NCBI GenBank assembly: GCA_017499595.2
Contig: CM038999.1
Coordinates: 806,001 to 870,000 of the forward strand
Origin: Psilocybe cubensis
Lineage: Eukaryota
Direction of reading: 5' to 3'
Length of the DNA: 64,000 nucleotides
How positions within the stretch are numbered: the stretch's first letter is position 1; every line of letters starts with the position of its first letter. The notes below the pieces were generated by a model, which made no database searches, was not told the DNA's origin, and worked only from the letters and a program-made list of their open reading frames with translations. Both the position numbers and the translations under genes were made by a program. Of this stretch, positions 1-21,400 are shown piece by piece.

Positions 1-471
1 CGCGAAGGTTGACCTGGCCATTGATCATGTTGGCGAAAGTGGGGGCGCTGGAATCTACACGACCAGAAACGACAAAAATTCAGTAAAGGATACACCAATA
101 AAAACCAAGACGATAGAAATACCTTCGAAATCCGCCATGAATGTCTTTGCACCGCTGTTGAGGGCGTTGATGACCATCTTCCTGTCTGTTGGACCAGTGA
201 TTTCGACGCGACGGTCTTCCAGACCTGGGGCAGGGGGAACGCAGTGCCATGAAGGCTCGGCACGGATGTGCGCAGTCTCCTTGGGAAAGTCGAGAGGAAC
301 TCCGGAGTCCAATCTGCGTTGAGCATCCTCGCGAGCGACAAGCAACGACTGGCGAGTAGATTCGAATGTGCGATGGAGAGCGGCGAGGAACTTGAGCGCG
401 CCGTCGGTGAAGAGCTCAGCCTGAGCTTTTGGGGCTACTTTAGAATGGATCTTAACGCCTTGGACGGTCAT
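1..471 (-). CDS. MLS1: Malate synthase (glyoxylate cycle), 5' part; runs off the left edge
   Basis: Motifs [32 protein letters not shown] and, after a GT-AG intron at 122..55, [17 protein letters not shown] are characteristic of malate synthase A. Confidence 0.95.
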
Positions 472-2374
472 GGTTGGATGTGGAGATGTGGTTGGTGAGA
501 TGGGTACTGTGGTGTGAAAGATGAAAGGTGTGCTTTGAACGACTGAGGGGTTTTGTATGGTGACTGAATCAGGCCGGCTCCCCGTGATATCCGCCTGCCG
601 TATCCCGAACGGATCGACGCCACGTTCCGAATTCGGAATGTCCTATATCACATGAAACTCCGCCTTTTGCCTCTGCTCCGTCGACTCCGTACCAATGGCA
701 GCAAAATGGCAGGCAACACAGGCAAACTCTTCGGCATCGCTGCTCACCACTAATCCACTAACCATCCACAAGTCTCCCCGCTTAGAATACAGCACCGAGT
801 GCCGGCTCCGGTATCCTTCCGGACGGAGATCCAGTTAGGCATGCCGCATCGAACGAAGATGTTCTGCATTTCGACTTGATTAACGACTAATCGTTTAAAA
901 CCTGGCTCGGTGAATGCTACAGACAACATAAATGTCTCTAAAATGATTATCCATCAGCGTAGAGGATAGGACGGATCTTGGTAGCCCAGTCGGAGTCCCG
1001 GGCACTTGTACTAACAATGGAAATGGAACGGCATAGCGGTGCGTGGGTATGAGTTGTGGATAATACAAACTGATATCATATGCTGTTCATAGTAAAGAAT
1101 TACAGCATAAATCACCACTGTACAGATGGATGCTCCATTGATTCTTAGAACCACTATTACAATGCCGGTTGGTGCTTTGACACTCGTTAGGCTATCATCC
1201 CTTTCTTGAAGATTTCGTGTTCGTTTTTGCCAGCCTGGCTCTACACCTTGTGCTACCTAATCGGACATGAGACAAGTAACCATAAAATAGGTTGATATAT
1301 TGATAAATAATATACAGAGTGGCTGAGAATGCATCATTAACATCTGGTTGATTCCCGTCCTCGTCATGGAAGGTCCCGCATTTAGGCCAGACGACTAAAT
1401 TCTCAAGAACTTGTCTTTTTACTTAGTATGTTATGGAGACACACAATTCTCCGGCGTCAAATCAGCGCCTAATTTCTGACAATCTTACGTCATTATGTTT
1501 TCTTCTGGATGTATACTCGGGCTTGGAGCTAGGCAAGGGATTCCTCTTGCTCCCCTGACAAGTCAATATGTGCCCAATTTAAATAAATCAGATATTATTG
1601 CACGTCCAAAATAAACATATTCTACTCGCTACGCTGGAAAACCGTTCAGCCTCCACTGACACCTCTGGTCCATGTAACCTGCCGGAGCCTTATGACACAA
1701 ACATTATCTGGTTATCTGATAATCGAGCTCCGCATAAAAAAACTCCGTACATACATAAATGATCTTACCGATTCCTTCTATCTGATCCGTGAACTCGACC
1801 CTTCATCTTAGTCGTAATCCTCCGTTACTGGTGCACCGCCAATCTAAATGAAATGCTTTATTGGGCAGATATTTCCAAATAGAGGTATGTATTGATCACT
1901 CCTGAATTAAGCACAATCTTTGGGAAGACCACGACTACTAGAAACTCAACAAACGCTTGAAAAACCCGAACGAATTTTACACACTGGCATACCACTTACT
2001 AGGCTGCTTCACTAAGGTTTGACCACTATATCGCCAACGTATCATATCGTTAATGTTCACTTCAACAGATCACGTAAATTGCGATTATGCAATGGAGGCG
2101 ATCCAGACAGAGTTCAGGTGTGATGAGGAGTATGAGTCGTTGGCTACTCGCGCACCCGCTCCATCTTTTTATATAGTCGTGACATGCCGTGGCGGAGTTC
2201 TAACTACGGGTTCTGCGGACGTATAAGTGTTGGCATGACAAATGTCAATCAAGGGTAGACGAACCGTCCATTGACTCGGATTCACGGTGTAGAGGTCTTC
2301 CCCATGCCAATGACTGATTTCCTGGTCAAACACAATCCGCTCTACTGAGCTTGTGAGGTACGAAGTGTGATATT

Positions 2375-4069
2375 ATGTTCTTAACATACATGCTAAAAAT
2401 GCTTCCGTGCCACTGGGTCAATAACAAAGATTCCCAAGCGACAAAAATGCTCGCAATCGAGCTACCCCTGGGTCAAAATCGCAATATATGTCCATACAAC
2501 TGCCTTGATCCCTACAGCTATGTTCCCGCGGACTGCCCTCTTCCAGTATGCACAGTTTGTGCAAACATAGCCAGTTTGGATGCAGAAATTTATGGGGTGC
2601 ACGACCAACTTGGAGAGCTGTTAAAGGAGCGTAGGGTTAACGAACGGCAGGTCAATGTCGGCCACAACATATCTATCCATCGTTTTCCAGTCGACGTTAT
2701 GGCCATCATATTCCATTTTTACGACTTGCTCAATGAACGCAAGCCGATGACGTCGCCTCTTGTACTCGGAGGCGTATGCGAAAGATGGAGAGATATTACG
2801 CTGCAGACGCCCCTATTATGGGATAGAGTTGTTGTTCTCCCGCCGAGAGACTCTACAGAGCTTGGTTTGGTTAAACTGTGGCTTGATCGCTCGGAAACAG
2901 TACCTCTTTCCTTAACGGTTCAGCATAAACACCCGAGTCCCACCCCTTGTCCCCCTTTTGAAGATCTTATCACGCTTCTCAGGCTACACTCTTCTCGTTG
3001 GACAACTCTTAAGCTCATCGCCCCTGCCTCGGTAATACATGCCTTACTTCACAATCTTGAGAATGTCCCAGATGTTATTCGCCTACGAATGGATATTCCG
3101 AGCAATGACAGAATGGAAAGCATCTCTATGCGAAAGCTATTACGGCCAAGGACATTTCATGCCAAAAAGACGTCTATCCAGCAAACCTTTTTGGCATGGG
3201 ATAACCTCACGCGCTTGGACGTGGCCGCGATAAAGATGGACGAACTGGTCCATATAATTCGCTGCGGAAAACATTTGACAGAATGTACGGCCATGTATAT
3301 TGCCAAACACGGACGGTCTTTTCCACTGCCCTCTGCGCCATTTGTTCACAAATCTTTGAAGTACGTCAAAACGACCTCCTCCTCTAACCTTTCAGACTTT
3401 TTGCGGTATCTTACTCTCCCGTCCCTGCGAAAGCTCCACTACGACTTTCTCTGGGAAAACGCATGGACGTCTGTTCCTGCGCTTAATGCATTCCTTGATC
3501 GTTCCTCGGCTTCTCCCGAGACCTTCAGCTTTACCTTCAGCCTAGAACCTCAACATCATCAACAAGTTGATTGGGTAACCTTGAGGGACCTTCCTAGGAT
3601 CACACATATGGTACTCGATATCGAACACAACACTCGATTTGATATGACGACGGCCCTTTTTTCTAGACTCAGTGATACTGCAGACGTTTATCTCCCTCAT
3701 CTTCGTGCGCTTAAAATCACTACGCCAACGATGTCACAAGAATCCTGGCGCCACTTTCATAAATTCCTCGGAGGGATACACAACAAACACGACGACCCCA
3801 ATCATCCACGAAGTAACATTCACAATCCTTTCCCTATTGTCTCCGCTACATCCTCCCTTCCCAACACCATTACTCGAAAAGCTCAGAGACCATTGGAATC
3901 GGTAATAATTCACCTAAAAGACCGTTTTACCAGCGATATGGCGAGAATGATGGATCCCTATCTTCCGTATTTTCTTGACGTCGAAAAATTTGGGGTGAGC
4001 CTCAAATTGGTCGATTCTATGGACTTTGATATGCTTCACAGGCCACCGAAGGTCACTGCGAAAGGCTGA
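2375..4069 (+). CDS. F-box-like/LRR-like protein of the expanded agaricomycete family; apparently single exon; true start may be a downstream ATG (~2447)
   Basis: 564-aa ORF with an N-terminal Cys cluster, a coiled segment, an F-box-like motif (HRFPVDVMAIIF...LGGVCERWRDITLQTPLLW) and then LxxLxL repeats. Confidence 0.75.
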   Translation: MFLTYMLKMLPCHWVNNKDSQATKMLAIELPLGQNRNICPYNCLDPYSYVPADCPLPVCTVCANIASLDAEIYGVHDQLGELLKERRVNERQVNVGHNISIHRFPVDVMAIIFHFYDLLNERKPMTSPLVLGGVCERWRDITLQTPLLWDRVVVLPPRDSTELGLVKLWLDRSETVPLSLTVQHKHPSPTPCPPFEDLITLLRLHSSRWTTLKLIAPASVIHALLHNLENVPDVIRLRMDIPSNDRMESISMRKLLRPRTFHAKKTSIQQTFLAWDNLTRLDVAAIKMDELVHIIRCGKHLTECTAMYIAKHGRSFPLPSAPFVHKSLKYVKTTSSSNLSDFLRYLTLPSLRKLHYDFLWENAWTSVPALNAFLDRSSASPETFSFTFSLEPQHHQQVDWVTLRDLPRITHMVLDIEHNTRFDMTTALFSRLSDTADVYLPHLRALKITTPTMSQESWRHFHKFLGGIHNKHDDPNHPRSNIHNPFPIVSATSSLPNTITRKAQRPLESVIIHLKDRFTSDMARMMDPYLPYFLDVEKFGVSLKLVDSMDFDMLHRPPKVTAKG

Positions 4070-5508: not shown

Positions 5509-5806
5509 TAAGTCCTTGGGTCGGTAACGGAAAAATATCACAGATAGACCGATACACCGGCCCATTCAATAAGAACTTTAGATACTGAGAATACGCTAGC
5601 TGGTGCTGACACTTCGTATAAATATTTCGAGCGGTGCTATACAAGTAGTGCGACGTTTAAAATCAACAGAGTTCACAATGATGTAGCCTAAGAATGAATC
5701 TTGGCAACGTGTCTTGGTTAAAACCGCCGAAAGTCAACAATTGGCGGCTTGGTTGCTTCTTCCTTTACTTCAACGACAACGTTCTTACTGACCAAATACT
5801 AACACG

Positions 5807-6781
5807 ATGGACCACGGGGGACATGGCGGACACGACGGGCACGACATGCCCACCATGGCGCGATGCAAGATGAACATGCTCTGGTACGCCTAATTCCAGT
5901 TCTATTTACTAAGGTCGCAGCCAACAGCCATACCTGCACTTTGTTTAGGAACACCGATATCATCGACACCTGCATCGTCTTCAAGAGCTGGCACATACGC
6001 ACATCTACCGGCTTCCTCCTTTCATGCCTTGCCATCGTCGCGTTGGGTGTTCTGTACGAGTACCTTCGCGGCGTCCAACGGGATCTCGACAAGCGCATTG
6101 CGCTGTCGCTCGCTGCGGGCAAGGCAAAAGGGAGGGAGAGGAGCAGGACCAGGGACGGAGATTCAGGGCAGTCGGAAGGTAATGTCGCTACGCTTGTCGA
6201 TGTCGAGGAGGTCGATTCGGAGGAGGCGGGGTTGCTGACTGGTCGACGGGCACTGAAATCGTCTCTTACAGGGTGAGTCCGACTCTATTGGCTTATTTGG
6301 TGTTGTGCATGCCCCGTTCCATCTGTCTTGGGCTCTCGGAGCACAAGGCATGAACTCGAACCTGAATTGAACGCTTTTCTAACTGCGCATTGATCTCCAG
6401 CACCCCAGTGCCGCCTGTGTCGCGCGCCCTCCGTGCTGCCGTATACGGAGCGACGGTGTTCCTCAGCTTCTTCCTCATGCTGGTGTTCATGACATACAAT
6501 GTACGCAATATTTCTCTTCCTCTTTTTTACTCTTTCATCATAACGATGTTCTTCCTTTCGATCATCCTAAAACGCTCTGCACTGCTCTACCATCGCCTAT
6601 CACCGATGCCCAAATGGAATGACTTTCGATTTTCCGACCTCGAAATGTGTCACCACAGGCCTATCTAATTTTCGCCACCGTCCTCGGTGCTGCGCTCGGT
6701 CACTACATCTTCGGCGCAACGATCAACGTTGACGCCATCCTCTCGGAGTCGAGTGGTGGAAAGGGAATGGCATGCCATTAA
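5807..6781 (+). CDS. Ctr-family copper transporter (Ctr2-like), 4 exons: 5807-5883, 5949-6272, 6401-6500, 6659-6781
   Basis: His/Met-rich N-terminus MDHGGHGGHDGHDM, CKMNMLWN motif, MLVFMTYN (MxxxM), GxxxG in the last TM and C-terminal ACH; canonical GT-AG introns keep the frame. Confidence 0.93.
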
Positions 6782-7754
6782 TACCAGCGGTTCCGATGAC
6801 TGACTCAGGATTTACCATCCTCGACTCTTTGCCGAACGATCCATGGCCAACGGATTTTTTTGGAATTAGGCTCGCTACTTTCGGTCTATGCAATGCGTTG
6901 TGTCGTTGTGTCGGTGACTCCCGCTCTGCGGGGATCCCTGGGCCAACGTTAAATTTCTCTGGATCTCTGATTTTCTTGTTGGATCTATCTATCAGCTTGC
7001 TTATATACCTTCCTCTTGTTTGCTTGCTGTTTGCCTGCTTTCTTGCGTCGATTCATTGATCCTGTTGCCATAAGTGCGTGTGTATGACCCGTTGAGCATC
7101 TATCATTTACCTGTACGTTCGAATTCTCATCAAGATTAGACATCACATCGCATCTTCGCAAGACAAACAAACAATTTATGGCATGAATCCATGAATTATA
7201 CTCTGACTCTGTTGATGATTTTCTGGCAACCATGGACAATATCTACCAGGCTTTTGACTTTCCATGGCCACGATTGAGGGTCACTGGTGCAAACATTGAA
7301 GGCCTGAAGGCCATATCACGTTAATACAACGTTCATTTGTGTGTTGGACGCATTCTTTCCGTTTGTTCTACAGGTTCTACAACGTTGTTTCATTACAGGT
7401 ACGAACGCTGCGATAAATGTAGCAAAATAACTGGAGGCCGTCTGCCAATTTTCATTTAGACCTCTCGATATGCTCCCAGGAATAGAACCTTCCTGAATTG
7501 TATCAGAAAGGCCGCGGATCGCCAACTATTTGAACACTGATCCAGGTTTTCAATGTCCTCTCATACTGTGATGGGGTCGTCAAAATGACACGAGTTTGAC
7601 ATTCAGCACAAACACGCTCCTATGGTACGCAACATGCCATAGAGCGACCAACTACAGGACACGAGGATAATGACTTATATGCCTTTGGGATGCCCGCAAA
7701 CACAAGCTCAACAGTTTCTTTACATCTCTTTCCACTACCGCACGTTTGATTGAC

Positions 7755-10700
7755 ATGGCGAAAATACTTGCTTGGCTATCTGGAAAGCAGTCAGAGCATG
7801 CTGATGAAGCAAGCTCAGCTGACGGAGGATCGGTATGTCTATTTGACTACTACAGAATAGGTATCATTTATAGCTAACTTTCATAATTTTGGACAATAGG
7901 GCGAGAACGATGTCGTTCCTGGGGTTGAAGAGTATTTATTGGATGCAGGGATGGCAACTATTACAACTTTACAGACTCTTTCTGCACTTGCTCCGCCGCT
8001 CTCTGTCGTCTCGCCGGTCCTTGAACTAGCCGTGCGCATTGTCCGGACCTGTGAAGTATGGATGGACGATTTAAATATACTTTAAATAACCAAACTCACT
8101 GTACACCCGCAGACGATCTCGCAAATCAAGGGCGAGATAGAACAACTTCAACGACGCGTCTGTTCTCTGGGTGTCTTGGTTGTCAACAAATCGCAACAGC
8201 AACAGCAACTACCATCCAATGGCGGTAGCGATCCAGATTTTGATGAAACCATCAAAACTCTTCAGTCGTAAGCTCTGAGTGACAATCTGCGCAAATATGC
8301 TTGGTACTGACTGTCTCCTAGTACTCTCAACAGTGTTGTCAAAGATTTGGAGACAATAAAACGACAGAACAAATGGCTCCTGATTATATGGCCAGACCTC
8401 AATAGGGGCAAAGTAGTAAAACGTATGGGGGACTTGGATTACGCTCTCCAAACCTACTTTGTACGTGGTTTTTTTTTTCTTCACTGCAAGTCGGATGTTA
8501 TTTACGATAATTTATAGGTGTCCCACAACGTTCGCGTTGCAGAGGTTCTCACGAGTTTGCGGTCAACGATGAATCGCGTTGATGAAAACGTTATTATAAT
8601 GAAAGACCAGGTCCAGCGCCTGATGGATTGTACACAAACACAGCAACCGCACTGCTCAGAAAGCACTGGCAAAGACGATATCCCCACCAACTTTGACACT
8701 TTTTATGGTCGGGTAGATGATGTTGCCACCATTGTGCAATGCCTCACGGATCAGCACAATGGTAATGACTCCAGGCAACATGTCTGGATCAATGGTCCTC
8801 CTGGGATAGGAAAGACGTCCCTGGCGCTGGAGTTGATCCGTCATCCTGCGGTAGTGAAAACCTTTGGCAAATATCGATTTTGGGTGCCATGCACGAAGGT
8901 TATGTCTCACCAACACTTCATACGTATTCTTTACACTCAGCTGTCGATCACTGCGCGGTCATACGACGGTCTCGAGACGCTGATCGACGAGCTGAGCGCG
9001 ACGAACGACCGAAGATTGGTACTGCTGGATCACTTCGAAACCGTATGGGATTTGGACGGCGTCGACGAAAGCCAAAGCCGCGTGCAGGGTATCCTGTCTC
9101 GGCTTGCAAGTTTGCCAAACGTAACGTTGCTTGTCACCATCACTTCGTCCCAGCCGCCCCCCAAGCATCCGCGATTCCAATGGCTGGATACGAAGCTCGA
9201 CGTCCTTGACTCGGAATTCGCCGTCGAGGTTTTTAACTTCCACTATGAAGGACAAAATCGGGAAGAAGTCAAGAGCCTCCTGGACAAGGTCGACCGTATC
9301 CCCTTGCTTATCAAACTTATGGCCATCGATGCACGCAATTCGAAAATGTCGATTGCAGACCTAGCAGAAGAGCAGGGTAATGGTCGCTCGACATCCATGG
9401 ATAATAGGATCAAGTCCTCCTTTGATGTCATTTTGCGCGACTCGAATCCCGAAGTTTTGGAGCTCTTCGCTGTGCTGTCAATGCTCCCCGCAGGTACAAC
9501 GTTCGACAGACTGGGTAAAATATGGGCTCCAACCAGGACCGATCCAACAACAGGGCAACAAAAAACTATCGCAACAAGCTCCAACGTCTCCTCTTTACAA
9601 TCATCAGCCTTCCTGGTAAATCTAAAGGCGACAGACAAGAGCGAAAGCAACAAGCTGTTGTTATTCGCCATCTTTCGCAAATACATCCGGCAACACAATA
9701 TGGTCTCGCGCGAGGTGAAACGGCACGTCCTGGACGCATGCTACGAGTACGTAACCAAACGCCGGTCTCATCCAGACGACGCGCATTTCAAATCATACAT
9801 ATCCGAGCTCGCAAGCGAAGAGGACAACATCATCTGCCTGCTCCAAGAAACGGACTCCAGCGCGCCGGACCCCAAGCGCCGCGCACAGGCGCTCGTCGGA
9901 TTCAGCTACTACCTCTCCAAGAAAAAACAGAGCGTCGAGTGCGCACGGGTCGCCAGGGACGCGGCGCACGCTGCGAAAGACGATCGCAGCCTCGCGCAGG
10001 CGCTGGTGCTCCTCGGGAAGCTGTGCCACCGCGTGGCGAAGTACGACGAGGCGTGTGAGCACTTTGTCGGTGCACAGAGCATTTTCGCGGACAAGCTGGG
10101 CGATAAGGCGCATGCGGCCGAGTGCTTGCTTGATCTTGTGCGAACGTGGCGGTACATGGAAAAAGGCACGAAAAGTATCAGTGAGATGAAGAAAATCACG
10201 GAGAAGGCTAATAAGATGTTGACCTCTACCAAGCCGAAGCCGAACTCCAAGGAAGCAAAGAAGGGCGCTGGACAGAGCAAAGACGGTACCGACGAGGTGA
10301 ATCGCTATCGCTATAACGTCGCCCGCGGGAAACTAGGACTGGGCCGGCACTACCTGTACACTCAAGACTGGCAAAAGGCCAAGGTGTTCTTCGAGGACGC
10401 GCTCGCCGTCTTCCAAGAACTCAACAACAGCGGCAGCACATCCGAGTGTCTCCACAACCTCGCAAAGATCGAAGCCACATCAAAAGCAAACTACCAGCGC
10501 GCCATCGAGCTAGCTCGGCAGGCGCTCGTCGCCGCGGACGAGTCCGGGGAAGATACACTCGTCACCTACGCCTTTGAGCTGCTCGCGTGCTACTACCTGA
10601 TAACGCGGGACTACAAAAGCGCCACGGACGTTCTGCTCGAAAGCATCCCGAAGACGATCTCGCTGGGTGACCTGCTCATCATCTCGCGGGTCAACGAACA

Positions 10701-10893
10701 GCTCGCGTATCTGTATGCTGCTGTAGCCCAGAGAGATAAGGCGGTCAAGTGTTATGACGAGTCGCGTGTAGGGTTTGGTAAGATCCAGGGTACGCCTGGA
10801 GGAAGGGCAGGTCGCGCTCGATGCGAGCGGAACCTTGAGGTTCTCCGGCGCGAGCCATTCCACTTTGAACAAATCGAATTGAATCGCTTCTGA
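7755..10893 (+). CDS. Fungal NLR-like protein: N-terminal helical (MLKL-like) domain + STAND P-loop NTPase + TPR repeats; exons 7755-7832, 7900-8055, 8113-8267, 8322-8460, 8518-10893
   Basis: Walker A GPPGIGKT, Walker B LVLLDHFETVW, RIPLLIKLMA (GxP-like region), LSMLPAG and C-terminal TPR-like helical repeats. Four upstream exons splice in frame through canonical introns. Confidence 0.85.
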
Positions 10894-11379
10894 GCCACCG
10901 TTTGTGCTACCATCCAGCCGCCCTGCCCCCCAACTTTTTTTTTTTCATTTCATTCATGCCAGTAAACCTGACAGATCCGACATCTACTGGTACCTGTAAC
11001 ATCATGGAGTTGAACTTCTGCATTCTGCAAGCATTTTATTTACAACTTTTCACCTAGATAGCCTACAATAAAATAATTAATTTAACACTAACCATCCAAT
11101 CCATTCATTCTCCAGTCATGTCTTTGAAAAAATTGAAATCTGGCGCGACCGGTGTGTAGGTGTAGCAACAGACTAACAGACTAACAGTACAACCCTACAA
11201 CCCTACAGCCCTATAATTATAAAATTGTGCCAAGTTAGTAGCTAGTAGCTAGTGCCCTTCCGACGCACACCCGTCTTTGTCACAAAGCGGTAAAGCGGCA
11301 AAGCGAAAAAAACAGGCGCAAAGCGGGAAAAAAACAGGCGTAAAGCTGTAAAACCGTAAAAGCAGGCAAAAGGGACAAC

Positions 11380-11720
11380 ACCAATACTAATCCCAATCCC
11401 AATACCAATACCAATACCAATACTACGACGAATACTAAACACACATCCACACGAACAACCCTAAAAGTTCGAACACAACTACTACTACTAGTACAAACAA
11501 AAACAAGCACAATTACGAACACAAACACAAACACAAATAAAAACACAAACACAAATAAAAACACAAACACAAATAAAAACACAAACACAAATATAGCGTA
11601 CTAGCAGTCTGGCACAATCGCTGCTCGGCTTTCATTTCGCAATTTCGCATTGTCGCATTTCGCATTTCGCATTTTCCCAATTTCGCAATTTCACATTTCG
11701 CAATTTCGCATTTCGATCTG
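11380..11720. repeat. Compound simple repeats: (AATACC)n, ~18-nt unit AAACACAAACACAAATAA x3-4, (TTTCGCA)n-like
   Basis: Directly visible tandem units at 11395-11421, 11519-11591 and 11630-11715. Confidence 0.9.
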
Positions 11721-11914
11721 GCACACCATTCCCATTCCCAATCACATCAATCCATATGTCATGCGCATGAAAGTACAGTACAGTATAACCACAACCACAA
11801 ACCACAAATCAAGTACACACCCATCCTCCTTTCCCTTCCTCCTTTCCCCTCCTCCGTTCCCATTCCCCTCCTCCTTTCCGCCTTTCCTCTCATAAAAACT
11901 GCCACCCCTCACGC

Positions 11915-14007
11915 TCAAGCACCCGGCACCCCCTCATCCTCCTTCTTCGCCAGCCCCTCCCGCTCCAACAACGCATCGATCTCAGCGGGCCTATATATCT
12001 TTGCGCGCGGCTGCTTCGTCGTCGGATCTAGTGTGAGCACTGCGAATTCCACTGTGTGTTGTGTTTTTTGGTTGTTGTAGTTGTGATTGTGATTGTATTT
12101 TGTGTTGCGGTTGGGTAGTAAGAGGTGAGATGGGGTGGGTGTGGTGCGGTGAGGAGAATAAAAAGGGGGAAAAAAAAAGGAAAAAAGGAGGTCAGTAATG
12201 AATTCAAATTATCAAGGAACAGAAAGAGTAGCAGAAACCAGAAACGAAGGAAGCACGGAATCGAGTAGGGAGTAGATAAGCGAGTAAGAGCAAGGAGATT
12301 CAAAAAATAAGAACCCCTTTTCTTCCACCCAAATAAAAAACCACAAAAAAAAAAAAACCCAAACACTCACATTTCTCACTACTCAAACTCGTACTATCCA
12401 TAGTCTTCCCCATAGTCCTCAACACCAAGCCCACCGCCTCCTTGACCTCAATCCCATCTTTATACTCCTGCTTCAGCAAACTCTGCGCCGTACCGTTATT
12501 CGCGCCTATACAGGTGGCTTTCCACCCAGAGTAGTTGCCTGAGGGATCGGAGTGGTACAGTTGGAAGTTGTAGTGGGGGTCGTAGCCTGCGTAGAGGAGG
12601 GAGACGCCGAAGGGTCGGAGACCTGTGTATATGTGTGTGTATATGCGTATATATGCGCGGGGGCGGGCGTAGGCAAGTTAGATCTTTGTGTTTTCATAAA
12701 AAAGCGACAAGAGACACGCACCGCCAAATTGCGTATACCCCTGCTTCATATCACACAACCTCTGCGCGAGGAGCTCGACGGGGATATCCTCATTATACTG
12801 CAAAAGGTGCTGTTGGGCTGCTGAGCGCGCGTAGTTGACGAGCGAGTTGGCGTCGGCGGTGAGCCCTGCGACGCCGCCTATTACGTTGCTGTTTTATTTT
12901 GAGAAGAAGGAGGAGGGATGGAGGAAGGGGCAGAGGAAGGAGGGAGGAGAGTAGGTGGATGAGGGGCAGAGGGAGGAGGGAGAGTCAGAATCAGCGCGTT
13001 CGGCAAATATCATATAAATATAGAAAAAGAAGGAAAGGGATGGGATGGGATGGTGTCGAGAATCGAGATGAAGATCGAATACAGATCTATCGATGCTGGT
13101 CGGACCGAACCAAGCATCGCAAAGCAAAGCAAAGCAAAGAAAAACAGAAAGAGAGTAAGAAAGAAAGAAAGACAGAAAGAAGAGGGTAGGACAGATGGGT
13201 TGAGCAACCCAACCAACACACGATCAAGTCGAATCGAATCAAGAATCAAAATCGTCTCAACCCAACCCTGCCAACCCACCAACCCAAACCCAAACACACC
13301 CACACCCACAACCACCCAAAAACACCCAAAACCACCCAAAACCACAACACAAAAACCAAAAAACCCAACCCACCTATTCAACAAATAAATCTTCTCTCCA
13401 CTACCCCCATACCCGCCCTCCTTCGCACTAGACAAATCGAGGAGTTTGCCCGTAACTTTTTTCTCAGCGGCGAGGACGACGCCGTCTTTGGCGAGCACGC
13501 CGAGGACGGTGCCGGCGTGTGAGATTGCTTCCATTGCGTATTCGACTGGTGTGTGTGTGTGGGTGGGTGGGTCGGGGTTATTGTTGAAAGTTGAAGTTGA
13601 GATTGAGATTGCGATTGCGATTGAAATTGGGAGGAAGAGGAAACAGAGAATGGGAAGAGAAGGGACAGGGAAGATGAGGATCAAGGTATCACACTATTAC
13701 AAAAAGCACTGACTTTGGTATAGACGGCCTACACACCCATCGCATTCGCATTAGTATCACCCACAACTTGAAGCTCAGACGAACAAACGCACCTTCAGGC
13801 GAGAAGATCGTCGTGCGGCCTACACAAAGGTAATTGTAAATGTCCCGTTCACCTCCCGCTTGCTCAATGTACAGCTAAATGGGAGTTGTGCTCACTGTCG
13901 TATCGTCTAGCCTGTATCATAATGCGATCTCATCAGTACGGGTATCATCACATATCGTACACCCCAAGACCAGGTGTAAGAGTAAGAGTAAGATTAACAC
14001 ACACCAT
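11915..14007 (-). CDS. PRE9: 20S proteasome subunit alpha3 (PRE9/PSMA4); 8 coding exons: 14007-14005, 13911-13896, 13819-13793, 13728-13714, 13545-13374, 12888-12722, 12622-12371, 12051-11915
   Basis: Spliced translation [32 protein letters not shown]...[14 protein letters not shown]...[21 protein letters not shown]...[18 protein letters not shown] is diagnostic of alpha3. Confidence 0.95.
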
Positions 14008-14306
14008 TGTCAGAAAATAGGAATGAGGAACGAGAGAGGATAAGGATATAGATGAAAGAAGGAGGAGTAGGTGAACGATCACTGACGCGTCCCTCACCCA
14101 GAACGCACACGCGTCGCATCTCGGCATTTCCCGTGTCCAATCAGAATTCAGCTATCGATATAGACCCCCGACTAAAAATAAGTAAGCTTGAAGATAATAC
14201 TGTATTCAATATTCAATATTCAGTCGTTCGTTTATACATACGTTCCAAAAGTCCAAATCTAAATAACATCTAACATCTCTAAAATTCAATATTCAATATT
14301 CACACC

Positions 14307-15300
14307 TCACACATCCTTCACATCCAACCCCCTCTCAACCTCCTCCAAATACCTCACAAACCCCCTCCCCCTCCCCTCCTTCCCCTCCCCCGGCACCACC
14401 CCCCTCAACCCACGCAGCGCCTCCCTAACCTGCTCCCCCGTCCCCCTCTCCAAATCCACCACCACCACCCCCGGCTCCCCAGCCGGATCCTCCAGCGTGC
14501 GCAACTGCGACGCCAGCATCGGCGCTTTCATAAAGTGCCCCGGCCGCTTCTCCATCCGCTCCAGGAGCAGCGCGGGCGAGCCGGAGATGTGGACGAAGTA
14601 TGTTTGGATTTCTGCGTGCGTGGGGGTGGGGGTGGGGGCAGAGAGAGAGGAAGGAGAGGATAAGGGCCGTTTACCACGCAGAATATCGCGGTAGTACGCT
14701 TTCAGCGCCGAACAACTAACCACCACACCTCTACACCCTTTCCCCTTCTCACCCTCCACCAAAACCCTCACCCCCTCCGCCCTCACCCTGGCCAACCACG
14801 GCTCGCGATCCCCATCTCCCAACGGCACGCCCGCGCTCATCTTCTCCACGTTCGCGCGCGGGTGCAGGTCGTCGCCTTCGATGTGCGCGAATGAGAGCGT
14901 GTGTGCGAGGGCGTGCGAAAGGGTGGATTTGCCCGTGCCTGATACGCCCTGGTGTTGGGGTGGGGGGGTGCGGGTTGGGGTGCGGGTGGGGTAAGGCAAA
15001 GGCAAAGCAGAAGGCAGAAAGAAAGAAGAAATGTATGCATTAGTACATACCATATCCCACCATAACCATAACTGTAGCCCTGTAAAACAGACATACCATC
15101 ACAATAATAAGCACCTTTTCCTCCTCTTCCTCTCTCTCTTTACCCGCTTCATCGACATCGACATCAACATCGACCTCCCCCTGCCCCTGCCCCGCACTCC
15201 CAACCGCATCATCCAAAGCACACGACTCTACCTCCCTCCCCGCCTCTGCATCTACCTCCATCTGTCTCCCAGCATCCGACTCGAGCTCCATATGCACCAT
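14307..15300 (-). CDS. Gluconokinase (GntK/IdnK, shikimate-kinase fold); exons 15300-15097 and 14948-14307
   Basis: Spliced VLIIVMGVSGTGKST P-loop, EGDDLHPRANVEKM, DREPWL, VVSCSALKAYYRDIL, GHFMKAPMLASQLRTLE. Confidence 0.93.
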
Positions 15301-18300
15301 ATCTCAGATTCTGTATAGTACAACTCCCAAAGTTCGTTGGTATCGAGACGAACGAATGGACGGACGAACGAGAACGAGAACGAGCGAACGAACGAACGAA
15401 CGAACGAACGGACGAACGAACGAGATAAACACTTATACAGCTAAAAGAAAAAAAGGGAAGCACAGAACTGAGAAGAGAGCAAGAGAGAGAAATTCTACCG
15501 TCTTCATCCCGCTCATCCACTTCCGTATTCCGTATTCCATTTCCATCTTGCTCCCCTCGGATCTCGGGCCTTACACTCCGTGCACCGTACTCCCTTTCTC
15601 CGTTCCTTTTCTCCTTGTCTCCCTTTCTCCGTTCCTTTTTCTCCCTTTCTCCCTTTCTCCTTTTCTCCGTCACTTCCCTGAATTCCCTCAGGCTCAGAGT
15701 CCCAACCACACCCAACCGCACCCCTCACTCACATCCCAACCATCCGCAATCCCATATGCACCCCCTCACCTCCCCTCACCTCACCTCAACCACTATAAGC
15801 TCGAAACGGGAAATGGGAAATGGGGAAACGGGAGCATGGAAAATAGATGGAGTATCTTCGGGGGTCACTCCAATGTCCAATGTCCAAAGTACAAAGTCCA
15901 AAGTTCAACGTTCAAAGTCTATCCTGATCACAAGTGCTGAGAAGGTGCAGAGTCCTCCTGATTCCTGAATTCCTAGTTCCTAATCCCTGATGTCATCGAA
16001 CCCATTGATGCCCACTATCAAACTTCAAAGCGAAAACCCCTATCATATCTCAAAGTTAAAGTTAAAGGAGGGTAAAGTAACGTGACAACGACGTCATACC
16101 GACGCGTCCGACGCGTCCTCGGACTCGAGACTCGACGCGTCGACGGAAATTCAAAGTTCGAAGTTCGAACGCGTGGTGAGACCGATGAACCGATGAGTAT
16201 TGTTATGAATCACAATGAGCTTGCGTATATGTCTATATATGTATATGTATGTCTACTTCTGGGCTGGTGGAGGGGAGGGGGGAGGGGTTATTGTTGAAAG
16301 GCTTTTACGTATTAGTATAAATAAAACAGGATTTAGGAGAAGAAGAATACTAGTTAATGAGTATTGCATGTAGTGAGTAGTACTACTTATGAGCTTGATA
16401 CGAAATTTGATTATAATATTCTGGAGTGGCAATAAATTTACCTAAACAATTCGACTGGGATTTGACATTGAAAAGTTGAGAGGAGAAGAGAAGAGGAGTT
16501 GGGATTGGGAGTTGTGGAACAAGCTGTCATTGACAGGTGAATGCAAAAGCAAATGCAAATGCGATCACAGGGGACTGATTCTGCAGAGGATCCCGCATTA
16601 CTCTGGTTAGTTCCAAGTCTATACTTGAGAGTAGGCTGGGAATTCAAATTCAAACAATGTAGATCAAGAAAGTCAAGTCACGGTGTTATTATGAGTTTTG
16701 GTTGAAGGAGAGACTCAACTCACCTCACTTCACCCGTTGACAGAACGGAAGCGGAGATGGAGGTCCTTACTACTTGCTTACTTTTTATTTTAACTTTTCT
16801 AAAGTGCGGATCAGGGATCGCAGCACAGAGCCGCCTGCTCTCGTGTCGTATCACGTCAACTTTCAAGTCAAGTCAAGTCAAAGTCAAGTCAACAAAGTCA
16901 TTCGGGAGTAGGACTGGGAGGACGTTAAGGGGTTTCCAGTTAAAGTTAACTTGAGAGGCTCCTTGGTACTTATCATATGCGAGTATGATGAGCCCGCACG
17001 CGAGTCTGCCTTGCTTGGCTTCAAAGTTCAAGTTCAAGTTCAAGTTCAATTGATCCTGGGGATGCATGTATCATTTATCCAATGATTCGAAATTTCGGTT
17101 TCGAGTGTCGAATTTCGATTCTCTGGATTCTCTGAGAGTGTCAACGGGATCTTTTAGTTTTAGTCAATTTGTTTTGTTTGTTGTTTCAGGTAAGTACCAA
17201 CCAAGCTCGGGCTCGGGAGAAGGAGTGGTTATGCAACCTATAACCTATCCTATTGCAATCAGTAGGTGATTTACATAGAATGAAACAGGAAGTTTTTGTT
17301 CTTGTTTTCGTTTTCGTTTTCGTTCTTGTTTTCGTTTTTGGTATTGTTTTCGTTTGCGATTACGATTTCAACATTCAAATCGCAACTTGGGGACTCGGTA
17401 CTCGGGGCGGAGCGCACGCCAAAATGCAATTTTTTGCATGTTTCATGTGAATGGGGCCAGCGAGCGAGCGAACGAGCGCTTGCTAATTAGGCTTGCGGCC
17501 ATCGATGATCGCTTGCGATTTAGCCACGCGAGATCCACATGTACTGTACATGCGCCGGCGCGTCGCGCCTCGCGTATCGCCTAAGACGAGATTCATCAGG
17601 ATTTATCATTTCGATTCAGATGCGCGCCGCCGTGCGCGCGCGCGGCCAAGTATGGCCTCCTTTTATGATCTTAAAATTTAAATAAATAAGCCGCTGGTGC
17701 TCAACTGGGAAACTTCGAACTAGCGTATCGCGACATCGGCGCGGCGGCGCGATGGGGAGTTGGATGCTTCAAGCTTCAAGCGCTGAGCGCTGATCCTCTG
17801 AGCGCTAGTACGTTCACGTTGCACATGTACATGTACATGCATTAAGAAGGTATGCACTGCACAGAAGTATGGATCCTATCGAAAAAATCAAAGTAGATTC
17901 ATTCATTCATTCATTCATTCATTGGCATTCACGTATAAAACAGACAGGCGAGTACATGCGTAAACCGAGTGAATGAGCCAATGAGTAAAGGAGATTGAGT
18001 AAAGGAGATTGAGTAAGTGAGCTGAATAGATGGAGAAATAGATGGGGGAATAGATGGATGAATAGATGGTAGATGAACAGAACTGAACAGAACATTGTGA
18101 TCCATGCATAGAGAGAAAGTGAGAAAGTGAGAAAGTGTGTGAGAGAGAGAGGTGGTATCATCTGATGTCAAAAAGAAAAGAGAAGAAAAGAAATCCGAAA
18201 TCCAAAAGAAAAAAGGAAAGGAAAGGACGTATTCGATACAACGCAACACAACACAGAAAACACAAAACAAAATCGACTATTACAAAAAAAAGCAGAAAAC

Positions 18301-18460
18301 AAAGTAAGAAAAAGAATAAGAAAAGAAAAGAAAAACTCCGGGTGGGTTCGTACACTAAAACACTAAAACACCACAATATCACGTATCCGACAGAACACAA
18401 AACGCAAAGGGCATACACCCACACCCGCACCGCATCGCGCATCGAATCACTCATCACTCA

Positions 18461-21400
18461 TCACTCATCATACACATCCGCCAACGTAGGCCTCCGCGAA
18501 TACGTATACGTATACTCGATCAGCTGAGGTTGCGCTTGTGCCTGCCCCTGCTGCCCCTGCTGCTGTTGCTGGTGGGTCTGGCTTTCCTGAGCCTGAGCCT
18601 GCTCTTGTTGCTGTTCCTGCTGATGTTCATGCGACTGAGAATGCGACGCAAGCCCCTGCGTGTAAAGCGCGTATAGCTCCTGGCCTTGCGATCTCATCCC
18701 CGTCCCCGTCCCCGCCCCCGTGCCTGTTGTCAGCTGTTGCTGCTGGTGCTGATGAGGCGGTGGAGGATGATCGTACGCGTACGCATATGGATACGCGTAC
18801 GCGTACTGCGCGCCGTCGCCGTCTTCTTCACGTTCGTGTTGGTGTCCGGCTTCGCCGCCGTCCACTTCCACCTGCACCTGCCCGTGCCCGTGTGCTTCGC
18901 CATGTCCAGTCCCAGTCCCACTTCCACTCTGACTCTGACCTCCACTCCCACTCCCACTCCCACTTCCACCTCCACTCTGACTCTGACTCCCACTCGCACC
19001 CGCACCCACACCACCACCACTCCCACCATCACCACTCCCACCTCCACCCACCCCCTCCCCACTCCCACCAGCACCACCCCTACCAAAAACAATACTGCTA
19101 TACGCAGGCGGCGGCACGTCAAACGCGCCCTCGCTCTCGCCCGTGCCCAGCGCCGCGCTCATGCTCAGGTTGGGGCTGGTTATATGCGCCTGCTCAAGCC
19201 CGTGCCCCAACGCGTGTCCGTGCGCCAGAAGTGGATCCTGCTCCCGTTCCTGCGTAAATCGTGAAAGCGCTATATCGTCCCGCGATGCTTTCGCGCGCAC
19301 CTGCTGCTGCTGTTGGTGCTGCTGGCGATGCGCGTGGCTCTGTCCATGATTCGAAATGTGTGTATAACCATAACCGTAGTCATACCCATACTCATAATCA
19401 TGATCGGAAATGGGGGGTAAACTCTGCAGATGCATCTGCGGCGACGCAGCAACCGACGCCGCCACCGACGCCGCTACCGACGCAGACGCCGATCTCGCGA
19501 TGCTAGTACCACCACGTTCATACCCAACCCCAAACCCGTACCCCGAGGAAGAAGAAGCGACGAGCGGGCTAGACGGCATCGACATCGCCCCTGGACCGGG
19601 TGTAGGCGGTAGAGAGCGCAGCGGTCTTTGTTGTGGTAGGGGTGGGACGAGCTCCGTCTGTATTTGCGTTTGCGTTTGTGGGTGTGTGGAGAGCTGGCTT
19701 GAACTTTGCACGCGGCGCGCTTGGCGGGGCGCCTGCGCCTGCGCCGCGGTGGTAGAAGACGAAGACGCCCCAGCGCCAGCCCCAGAACCACCCGCCCCAG
19801 AACCAGAACCCGCCCCACCAGTAACATCAGCCAACAAAGGCACAGGCGGCGGCCGCGGCAACGGCCTCCTCACCCTCCCACCCCCACCCCCTCCAGCTCC
19901 AGCTCCGGTGCGGGATGTGGTGGACGTAACAGACCGCACACTCTCCGCGCGCCCGAAGGGCAGTGCGCGCGGGCGCTCGAGTTCGCGTTCGAGGTCGAGG
20001 TTGAGGTTGAGGTCGAGTGCTTCGGGGTATGTGTGGGTGTGGGTGTGGGCGTTTTCTTGTCTTGCGTCTTGTTGCGCGTGCGAGTGCGAGTGCGAGTGCG
20101 AATGGGAATAAGAATGCGAATGCGAGTACACACTCGCCCCGCCGCCGCCGCCACCACCACCACCACCACCGCCGCCGTGTAGAATACTACTACTCCGATC
20201 CCTCGTACTCCCACTCGCGCTCCTACTCCCTCTTATACTACTCCCGCTCCCATCTGTCGTCATCGACGGCGCCGTCATCGTCGTTGTCATCGTCATCGCA
20301 TCATCTATACCAATTCACAAAAAAGCGGAGAAGAGCGCGGGGGCGCGGTTAGATTCAGATCTTTGATACACAACACAGGACGGGCAGGGGATAAGACTTA
20401 CATGAAGGCGGGACGAATGTGCTCGACACGGGCGTTGGGGGCTGGTCCCTATCGCGTTCGCGGTCGCGGTCCTGGTCGCGCTCAGAGTCCCGCTCGCGCG
20501 CAACGAGCGACTTGGCGTATTGAACCGGGAGCGGGGGGACAGGCGGGTGCTCCGCGGAGAACTGGAACGACTCGGCGAGCGCGCTCGCGCGGTGCGGGTC
20601 CGGGAGGGAGAACGTGTCGAATTCGTCCTCGTCGTCCTCGTCGTCGGAGTTGGAGTTGTTGGAGTCGGAATCGGAGTCGGAGTCGGTCATGGGTGGAAGC
20701 ATCGTCGTTGTACGTGATGGCCCCGGGGAGGACGCTTCGGATTCGGGGTAGGGTGTGAATGTGGGCATGCCTGATTCAGGCGAGGCGGGTGTGCGCGGTC
20801 TCTCCCTCTCCCTCTCCCTCGTGCGCGCACGCGACGAGGACGACGGCACAGGCGACGCGGCCCTCCCCGTCTTATTAAAAATCGGCTCTCCATACAAAAT
20901 CTTACGAAACTTGGGATCCGAGCGAAACGGTACATCCGGCGCAAAACTCGGCGCGTGGCCCTGCTCGTGTCTCTCAAGCGACGATAGCGATAACGAACCG
21001 TCGTCGGGTTTGCGGACGAGCATCCATTCCTGGAGGTCGGTGACGAGGAGGGTGGCGGTGAGGAGGAGGTAGTCGAGGAGGAGGATGGAGACGCCTTTGA
21101 TGGTGGAGAGCAGGTCGGGGTCGTATTTGTCGTGCAGGGTTTCGTAGATTGTTAAAGTGAGCGGGCCGGGGCCTTTTGGGGTGGTTAGGGTGGCGACGGG
21201 GCCTTTGACTGAGGCTGTTGTGCACTGTTTTTGGATCGGAGGGGAGGGGAGGGGGGGAGGATTTGGGTGAGTGATGTGCGGATGGGGAGATAAGGGGGAT
21301 GGATGGAAGTGATTAGCTTACCCAGTATGTATGGCCGTATCGCTTCCACTTCATCGGCTGCGAGTAATTGGGTATGCTGAATCTGCGCGAGGCGCTAAGT

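What the first reader, a model, noticed from the sequence alone, without database searches (positions are those of the whole stretch)
7755..10893. NLR-like receptor with a hidden MLKL-like N-terminal cell-death domain
Seen: four short exons missed by the ORF track splice in frame onto the 791-aa ORF and add ~175 aa of amphipathic helices (TLQTLSALAPPLSVVSPVLELAVRIVRTCETISQIKGEIEQLQRRVCSLGVLVV...IKTLQSTLNSVVKDLETIKRQNKWLLIIWPDLNRGKVVKRMGDLDYALQTYF). Known: fungal NLRs are effector-NTPase-repeat proteins, and MLKL/HeLo-like helical bundles act as membrane-disrupting effectors. Inference: a self-contained sensor-executioner for allorecognition or anti-pathogen cell death; few have been tested in mushrooms.
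Basis: partly seen in the sequence, partly recalled or inferred. Interest (0 to 1): 0.7.

Follow-up and report, generated by a model that had tools for sequence, protein, structure and literature searches.

The report
Mushroom immune receptor with MLKL-like domain
This is a real, spliced mushroom gene for an immune-type sensor protein that carries a domain resembling the animal cell-death protein MLKL, a kind already catalogued in mushrooms, though I found no test of whether such domains kill cells.

Summary
Five exons (7755-10893, four GT-AG introns) give a 967-aa protein identical to the annotated Psilocybe cubensis JR316_0001761. One contig of a probable RNA run skips all four introns; two other runs show no joints. 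Residues 35-199 fold confidently (pLDDT 87) into an extra helix, a four-helix bundle, a short cross-helix and a brace. The best natural match is the MLKL executioner domain (Z 12.0, 2.8 A), tied with Cbl and designed bundles. Pfam MLKL_N is the top hit but below cut-off; five relatives pass it. This is the published basidiomycete MLKL-like (BaMLKL) NLR type, here on an NB-ARC-like NTPase and TPRs; that survey left its two nearest listed relatives unclassified. Killing is inferred, not shown. Allorecognition is disfavoured: listed strain differences are mostly synonymous. Extra lead: the family's exon-1 tail often carries a Cys/aromatic motif (19 of 41), a candidate membrane anchor, but this protein has no Cys there. 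Verdict: new member of a known kind; interest 0.35.

The parts
7755..7832 (+). Exon 1 (aa 1-26): start codon, short Leu/Trp amphipathic tip and acidic flexible tail. In relatives this tip often carries one or two Cys (candidate membrane anchor); here it has none
7833..7899 (+). Intron 1, 67 nt, GT..AG
7900..8055 (+). Exon 2 (aa 27-78): extra helix hG (aa 35-56, about 7924-7989), Pro turn, and helix h1 (aa 64-79, equivalent to MLKL helix 1); together the most hydrophobic stretch of the domain
8056..8112 (+). Intron 2, 57 nt, GT..AG
8113..8267 (+). Exon 3 (aa 79-130): helix h2 (84-109, including a poly-Gln insert) and start of h3
8268..8321 (+). Intron 3, 54 nt, GT..AG, phase 2
8322..8460 (+). 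Exon 4 (aa 130-176): end of h3 (119-144), short cross-helix hM (147-152), helix h4
8461..8517 (+). Intron 4, 57 nt, GT..AG
8518..8679 (+). Start of exon 5 (aa 177-230): brace-like continuation of h4 and linker to the NTPase
8680..9864 (+). STAND NTPase module (aa about 231-625): Walker A at 8794-8817, Walker B at 9019-9042 (Asp and Glu kept, Asn replaced by His), sensor-1 at 9130-9150 with Thr in place of Arg, GxP-like and RNBS-D-like motifs, helical and winged-helix domains
9865..10893 (+). TPR sensor region (aa about 626-955; 15 long helices, 7-8 repeats), C-terminus and stop codon; no high-identity internal DNA repeats

Best explanation
An expressed 'all-in-one' fungal NLR of the basidiomycete MLKL-like (BaMLKL) type. 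SHOWN here: gene structure, a spliced contig, three-part architecture, MLKL-like sequence and fold of the N-domain, and purifying selection among the listed strain differences. INFERRED from STAND biology: at rest the TPR arm holds the NTPase in a closed nucleotide-bound state. A non-self or damage-linked ligand on the TPRs opens it and drives oligomerisation, which clusters the N-domains through the brace helix. INFERRED from MLKL/HeLo/RPW8/CC precedent: clustering frees the hydrophobic hG-Pro turn-h1 hairpin (aa about 44-76), which inserts into a membrane to give ion flux and death of the hyphal compartment; hG caps h1 until then, and the exon-1 tip pre-positions the protein at the membrane. 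The likely role is general defence or surveillance rather than a multi-allelic self/non-self locus. Odds by step: N-domain homologous to MLKL_N about 0.9; ligand-gated oligomer about 0.8; N-domain itself damages membranes about 0.6.
For: Splicing and identity to the annotated protein. TPR_12, NPHP3_N and NACHT over cut-off. Full-length model matches a STAND-TPR protein (6mfv, E 3e-13) and Apaf-1 best. MLKL_N is the top Pfam hit of the isolated domain (E 0.0035, aa 64-146 on profile 2-79) and is hit by 8 of 12 family members at E<=10. Of 54 profile hits scanned, 12 list MLKL_N at E<=0.01 and 5 pass its cut-off, including full-length P0069 (Coprinopsis; MLKL_N + NACHT + TPR_12; E 2.8e-33 to this family's profile). 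Model pLDDT 87 with helices matching hG, h1-h3, hM, h4. MLKL chains align from aa 59-61 to MLKL residue 0-2, close to the Pfam register: 6zz1 Z 12.0/2.8 A/116 aa, 4btf Z 11.4/2.4 A/100 aa; AtMLKL3 9.7, NRG1.1 CC-R 9.4-10.2, Rx-CC 9.4. ESM Atlas: MLKL_N-bearing cluster at 0.93; TM 0.52-0.57 to MLKL, RPW8 and a plant kinase cluster. The most hydrophobic 19-mer starts at query position 40-59 in 52 of 66 relatives. 29 of 39 changed codons are synonymous against 0.30 expected.
Against: The protein's own MLKL_N score (17.3 bits) is under the cut-off of 27. No PDB sequence hit to MLKL at E<=10; Foldseek gave nothing at E<=0.001. Z of 11-12 is within the range the tool calls unspecific for helical bundles; designed repeats (12.2-12.8), a gamma-tubulin complex chain (11.7) and Cbl's four-helix domain (11.0-11.6) tie with MLKL. 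Profile comparison with the genome's own over-cut-off MLKL_N protein was weak (probability 10%, E 0.003). h1 is not at the N-terminus: about 60 residues precede it. The hairpin is only marginally hydrophobic (1.61 here; 13 of 66 relatives reach 1.6). The protein has about three times as many unique changes as its P. cyanescens relative in the N-domain and NTPase and lacks the sensor-1 Arg. I found no functional test of a BaMLKL domain.
Confidence: 0.58

Rival explanations
1. Sensor or adaptor NLR: same switch, but the capped MLKL-like bundle is a protein-interaction surface that recruits a separate executioner or kinase (for example a stand-alone MLKL_N protein) and does not itself enter the membrane.
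For: Extra hG helix and tail ahead of h1; Cbl's adaptor bundle ties with MLKL. The genome has a separate MLKL_N gene on contig C3. Two Mycena relatives carry a kinase domain at the N-terminus instead (P0020, P0021). The mapped Coprinopsis somA locus pairs NACHT genes with kinases.
Against: No partner gene nearby: neighbours are malate synthase, F-box-like, Ctr copper transporter and a proteasome subunit. The hairpin's low charge and hydrophobicity are family-wide.
Confidence: 0.24
2. Somatic-incompatibility (allorecognition) determinant whose TPR alleles define self.
For: Fungal NLRs control incompatibility in ascomycetes (PMC12881547 passages). The P. cubensis copy sits on a long branch (1.02 against 0.26 for its sister; quick tree). 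In run X13 depth over the TPRs is about half that upstream, which a divergent second allele could cause.
Against: The three other runs that carry the gene differ by about 2% (76 other letters over 3701 in X9). Listed TPR differences are 9 synonymous to 2 replacement codons (40 of 130 differences were listed). No high-identity repeats. somA alleles are generally under 50% similar. The X13 dip falls largely on GC-rich bins (0.55-0.66 in 7 of 8). Caveat: the run search finds near-identical sequence only; X13 alone was added by species label.
Confidence: 0.1
3. A drifting, partly disabled member of a birth-and-death family: transcribed, but no longer a working switch.
For: Departures from family consensus: Walker B His (1 of 49), the Pro of the winged-helix motif lost (kept in 43 of 49), second Pro of the turn, helix-4 Cys and Phe, no tail Cys. 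Faster change than P0003 in three of four regions.
Against: Intact frame, correct splicing, core Walker residues kept, both listed coding indels in frame, strong excess of synonymous differences (p 1e-8).
Confidence: 0.08

Closest known systems
BaMLKL NLRs (basidiomycotal MLKL-likes; Wojciechowski et al. 2022, PMC9815663)
   Same: Basidiomycete NLR N-terminus with four-helix MLKL core, extra N-terminal helix hG and short cross-helix hM (section 12; model). BaMLKL + NOD + TPR occurs there: 16 TPR rows in cluster KIM77258.
   Different: Published BaMLKLs are mainly NACHT-WD (257 WD rows in the same cluster; none of 90 of 563 rows viewed had TPR or NB-ARC). The two nearest relatives found in that table, PPQ92009 and KDR84308, are 'unannotated, not-clustered'. 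This family has an NB-ARC-like NTPase and often a Cys/aromatic exon-1 tail.
Mammalian MLKL executioner domain (PDB 6zz1, 6zvo, 4btf, 6ux8; Pfam PF22215)
   Same: Four-helix bundle plus brace in the same register; Z 11-12, 2.4-2.9 A.
   Different: 13-14% identity; about 60 extra N-terminal residues; switched by a STAND-TPR module, not by a pseudokinase and RIPK3.
Plant CC and CC-R (RPW8) NLRs and plant MLKLs (Rx-CC 4m70, NRG1.1 7l7v, MLA13 9fyc, AtMLKL3 6ka4)
   Same: Helical death domain fused to an NB-ARC switch; Z 8.9-10.2. Some plant CNLs carry putative N-terminal acylation sites (PMC11467418 abstract).
   Different: TPR sensor in place of LRR; helix 1 is not terminal; no RPW8 Pfam hit listed for the domain.
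Ascomycete HeLo/HeLo-like executioners (HET-S, HELLP) and all-in-one HeLo-NLRs
   Same: Same superfamily and all-in-one layout according to the review passages.
   Different: HeLo and Helo_like_N are not listed for this domain; no amyloid-effector gene was seen among neighbours; HeLo-likes lack hG.
STAND-TPR proteins (PDB 6mfv) and Apaf-1
   Same: Best full-length structural matches for NTPase + TPR.
   Different: They lack the MLKL-like N-domain (recalled).

Membership tests
Fungal NLR (STAND) | Central NACHT or NB-ARC NTPase with Walker A/B | tested here: met
   NACHT 36.3 and NPHP3_N 38.4 bits over cut-off; Walker A and the Walker B Asp/Glu present; Foldseek 6mfv and Apaf-1
Fungal NLR (STAND) | C-terminal repeat domain (TPR, WD or ANK) | tested here: met
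   TPR_12 53.7 bits; 15 long helices at high pLDDT
Fungal NLR (STAND) | Nucleotide-dependent oligomerisation on ligand binding | not testable with these tools
   needs biochemistry; sensor-1 is Thr here and in 20 of 49 relatives, Arg in 26
NACHT versus NB-ARC class | Class of the NTPase | tested here: inconclusive
   Pfam favours NACHT for this protein (36.3 against NB-ARC 21.4 bits). Many relatives score best on nSTAND1, AAA_16 or NB-ARC. Structure hits and GxP/RNBS-D-like motifs (labels recalled) favour NB-ARC-like
BaMLKL | Basidiomycete NLR N-terminus | tested here: met
   P. cubensis; named relatives in Agaricales and Tulasnella
BaMLKL | Four-helix core superposable on MLKL | tested here: met
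   Z 11-12, 2.4-2.9 A over 100-119 aa; Atlas TM 0.52. The fold alone is not specific: Cbl and designed bundles tie
BaMLKL | Extra N-terminal helix hG ahead of MLKL helix 1 | tested here: met
   helix aa 35-56 lies outside the MLKL-aligned range
BaMLKL | Short helix hM between h3 and h4 (absent in Goodbye-likes) | tested here: met
   helix aa 147-152 in both models; its perpendicular orientation was not inspected
BaMLKL | CDD MLKL_NTD annotation or membership of a published BaMLKL cluster | tested here: inconclusive
   CDD is not on hand; two relatives are 'not-clustered' in the paper's table, which is cut when stored; the cluster alignments (supplement files 9, 10) were not searched
Pfam MLKL_N (PF22215) | Score at or above 27 bits | tested here: not met
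   17.3 bits, E 0.0035, top of 7 families; met by 5 of 54 relatives scanned
MLKL/HeLo/RPW8 executioners | Membrane permeabilisation and cell death on oligomerisation | not testable with these tools
   only indirect: hydrophobic hairpin
HeLo / HeLo-like / Goodbye / RPW8 Pfam families | Profile match of the N-domain | tested here: not met
   none among the 7 families for the domain at E<=10 or the 25 of 48 shown for its alignment
Allorecognition (het/som) loci | Highly divergent alleles, positive selection or high-identity repeats | tested here: inconclusive
   about 2% divergence, mostly synonymous, no internal repeats; only 3 other runs, 40 of 130 differences listed, and the run search is biased to near-identical sequence

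The most novel reading that the evidence does not exclude
The gene belongs to an Agaricomycete-wide NLR subfamily that the 2022 survey left unclassified: an MLKL-like bundle capped by an extra helix, an NB-ARC-like switch and TPRs, pre-tethered to a membrane by an exon-1 tip that is S-acylated in many members (Cys at residues 2-10 in 19 of 41 close relatives against about 14% expected; Trp/Phe in 30 of 41; present in all three main tailed branches of the tree and on its own exon in two raw contigs). On activation it would form a resistosome-like pore by inserting an internal hG-h1 hairpin rather than a terminal helix. That would be a fungal parallel to acylated plant CNLs, testable with the Coprinopsis cinerea member CC1G_04956. 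The window's protein would be a Cys-less version anchored by its amphipathic tip.
Probability: 0.25. Interest if true: 0.65.

Novelty: new member of a known kind. Interest (0 to 1): 0.35.

Why it matters
MLKL-like N-domains belong to the commonest effector superfamily of basidiomycete NLRs, yet my searches found no functional test of one. This locus gives a splice-confirmed example and extends the class to a STAND-TPR subfamily with a member in the genetic model Coprinopsis cinerea. The extra helix and the conserved tip make two sharp predictions: a cap on the killing helix and a membrane anchor. As it stands the gene is already annotated and the domain class is published, so a specialist would not be surprised.

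Tried and rejected
Single exons against Pfam: nothing useful. Word-based protein search with residues 30-215 found only the protein itself; the profile search was needed. PDB sequence search with the domain profile gave only coiled-coil noise at E 0.08-3. Foldseek of the domain model: no match at E<=0.001, MLKL chains at ranks 5, 24 and 33. The full-length model left the N-domain under pLDDT 60 and was not used for the fold claim. No model of an N-domain oligomer was obtained, so self-association is untested. No RNA holder is on record in the run list, and run X12 of the same study as X10 gave no contig; neither is used as evidence. NCBIfam gave only weak STAND/TPR matches far under cut-off. 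Rejected: chance splicing; a second NLR or partner gene in the window (tblastn finds only this gene; neighbours); high-identity TPR repeats; HeLo, Goodbye or RPW8 by profile. P0010, P0012, P0013 and P0015 of the first alignment were left out of the domain alignment. The maximum-likelihood tree did not finish; the quick tree is quoted (46 rows; P0051, P0093 and P0010 left out). Searches for this gene, or for acylation of fungal NLR N-termini, found no paper among those listed; subscription journals are mostly missing from the library.

Full report
OBSERVATION. Exons 7755-7832, 7900-8055, 8113-8267, 8322-8460 and 8518-10893 are separated by GT..AG introns of 67, 57, 54 and 57 nt and give 967 aa, 176 of them from the four short exons. 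The product is identical to database protein P0001, named by its source as Psilocybe cubensis hypothetical protein JR316_0001761. Of four runs laid on 7400-11100, X10 (RNA by guess) has one 2146-nt contig that skips all four introns. X9 and the DNA reads of X13 show no joint, and nothing was laid from X12. Four of 86 loci scanned (L013-L016) carry the N-domain in three pieces that break at the same positions. Among 55 partial hits of the profile search, 29 start at profile positions 90-96, 20 end at 141-143 and 12 end at 48-50; I read these as single-exon ORF calls (inference).

NTPASE AND REPEATS. The long exon matches TPR_12, NPHP3_N and NACHT over cut-off, NB-ARC just under. The full-length model (pLDDT 71; N-domain under 60) matches a STAND-TPR crystal structure (6mfv) and Apaf-1 best. 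Among 49 family members, Walker A is intact here and Walker B keeps its Asp and Glu but has His where 43 have Asn. Sensor-1 is Thr here and in 20 rows, Arg in 26, and the winged-helix Pro kept in 43 rows is lost (motif labels recalled). I call the NTPase NB-ARC-like; its class is not settled.

N-DOMAIN. Close relatives keep it at 18-43% identity. Alone, residues 30-200 have MLKL_N as top Pfam hit (E 0.0035, 17.3 bits, cut-off 27), and 8 of 12 family members hit MLKL_N at E<=10. A profile of those 12 finds 482 representatives at E<=0.001. I scanned 54 of the 149 new ones listed, chosen from 72 that cover the domain: 12 list MLKL_N at E<=0.01 and 5 pass the cut-off; only the best five families were shown per protein. 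One of the five, P0069, is a full-length MLKL_N-NACHT-TPR protein of Coprinopsis cinerea in one cluster with CC1G_04956. With 67 sequences the domain folds at pLDDT 87 into helices 35-56, 64-79, 84-109, 119-144, 147-152 and 154-199. Against 48,161 solved chains, MLKL scores Z 11.4 (2.4 A, 100 aa) and 11.1, AtMLKL3 9.7, Rx-CC and NRG1.1 9.4; a second look gives the MLKL executioner domain Z 12.0. Designed repeats (12.2-12.8), a gamma-tubulin complex chain (11.7) and Cbl (11.0-11.6) tie, and the tool warns that Z under about 13 is common for helical bundles. The fold is therefore not decisive alone. What carries the assignment is agreement: Pfam and structure both place MLKL's first residues at aa 59-64, the Atlas points the same way by features and by structure, and the family runs into proteins that pass the cut-off. 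Against: no PDB sequence hit, no significant Foldseek hit, and a weak profile match to the genome's own MLKL_N protein.

TWO FEATURES AHEAD OF THE BUNDLE. First, helix 35-56 lies before the MLKL-aligned part, joined to h1 by a Pro turn (Pro in 60 of 66 and 64 of 67 rows). This hairpin is the least charged element and holds the most hydrophobic 19-mer in 52 of 66 relatives, though only 13 of 66 reach 1.6. Second, the tail. In 41 close relatives with an 18-90-residue tail, 19 have Cys at residues 2-10 (0.081 per residue against 7 in 1271 in the rest of the tail) and 30 have Trp or Phe there; among 9 more distant ones only 1 has Cys. 110 other sequences were left out as partial or with no tail in that range, and the rows are related, so the p-value overstates. 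The Cys tip occurs in all three main tailed branches of a quick tree and is followed by a splice donor in raw contigs L014 and L016, which are nearly alike there. The window's protein and its P. cyanescens relative have Leu/Trp tips without Cys. S-acylation is my inference; plant precedents are acylated CNLs (PMC11467418, abstract) and flax M (search listing).

CONTEXT AND VARIATION. The gene stands alone in the window, between a Ctr copper transporter and a proteasome subunit gene. The genome has at least six other STAND-TPR matches, one (L008) with the same N-domain layout, and a separate MLKL_N gene. Other runs differ by about 2%. Of 130 differences 40 were listed; they touch 39 codons, 29 synonymous against 0.30 expected, and 9 of 11 in the TPRs. 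There are no high-identity repeats. The protein has about three times the unique changes of P0003 in the N-domain, NTPase and helical regions. X13 depth halves over the TPRs, largely on GC-rich bins; a divergent second allele is not excluded.

MECHANISM. Most likely (0.58): a TPR-gated STAND switch that oligomerises on sensing and clusters its N-domains, releasing the hG-h1 hairpin into a membrane to kill the hyphal compartment. Architecture, splicing and fold are shown; gating, pore formation and death are inferred from STAND, MLKL, HeLo and CC precedent. Rivals: adaptor for a separate executioner (0.24), allorecognition determinant (0.10), drifting copy (0.08).

KNOWN SYSTEMS. Wojciechowski et al. 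2022 (PMC9815663; passages, section 12 whole, and searches of supplementary table S1, which is cut when stored; files 9 and 10 not searched) describe about 600 BaMLKL N-termini with a four-helix core, extra helix hG and short helix hM, and ask for experiments before death activity is assigned to N-terminally extended forms, naming Goodbye-likes. The model has these three features. In their table BaMLKL rows are mainly NACHT-WD, 16 rows of one cluster have TPR, and the two near relatives I found there are unannotated and unclustered. A 2025 review (PMC12881547, passages) treats all-in-one MLKL-like NLRs as known. The first mapped mushroom incompatibility locus, somA (10.64898/2026.06.24.733965, parts 1-2 of 4), has NACHT-kinase pairs with alleles under 50% similar, unlike this locus. 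PMC13439941 (passages) notes that homology says little about NLR function. PMC4986451 (passages) reports that NB-ARC pairs preferentially with TPR. It works like an MLKL/CC-type NLR. It is best filed as a BaMLKL-type NLR by structure, with the paper's cluster criterion untested and the Pfam cut-off missed.

VERDICT. Interest 0.35. The most novel open reading, a membrane-tethered subfamily that inserts an internal hairpin, has probability about 0.25 and would merit 0.65.

Noticed in passing
window 9756-10747, run X13: Read depth over the TPR region is 17-25 against 25-42 upstream; GC is high in most of these bins, so GC bias and a divergent second allele are both possible.
   Followed up: partly
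window 8197 and 10231: In-frame length variants among runs: 3 nt in the poly-Gln loop (X13, 12 of 43 reads) and 6 nt in the Lys/Pro-rich insert inside the TPRs (X10).
   Followed up: no
L008 and L010 (G000:C8, about 878-885 kb): Two STAND-TPR genes tail to tail; L008 has upstream exons with the same N-domain layout as the window gene.
   Followed up: partly
L011:1219-3324 (G000:C3): A long open frame with MLKL_N over cut-off (33.6 bits) preceded by an hG-like helix and Pro turn; rest of the gene not examined; candidate stand-alone executioner.
   Followed up: partly
L003, L005, L006, L007 (G000:C9, C5, C6): Further STAND-TPR genes of the same NTPase type with no N-domain match in the stretch fetched.
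   Followed up: no
proteins P0020, P0021 (Mycena sanguinolenta): Same NTPase-TPR body with a protein kinase domain at the N-terminus: apparent effector swap, or fused gene models.
   Followed up: no
window 2357-4069 (+), 35369-37303 (-), 51325-53304 (-): Three long open frames with F-box-like matches, only the second over cut-off.
   Followed up: no
window about 11180-21300: Long stretch rich in short tandem and low-complexity repeats, in and around a proteasome-subunit gene and a small kinase-like (AAA_33) gene.
   Followed up: no
window 57633-60314 (-): An 894-codon open frame with no Pfam match at E<=0.001.
   Followed up: no
window 58-642 (-) and 5803-6276 (+): Malate synthase N-terminal exon and a Ctr copper-transporter exon upstream of the NLR gene.
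   Followed up: partly
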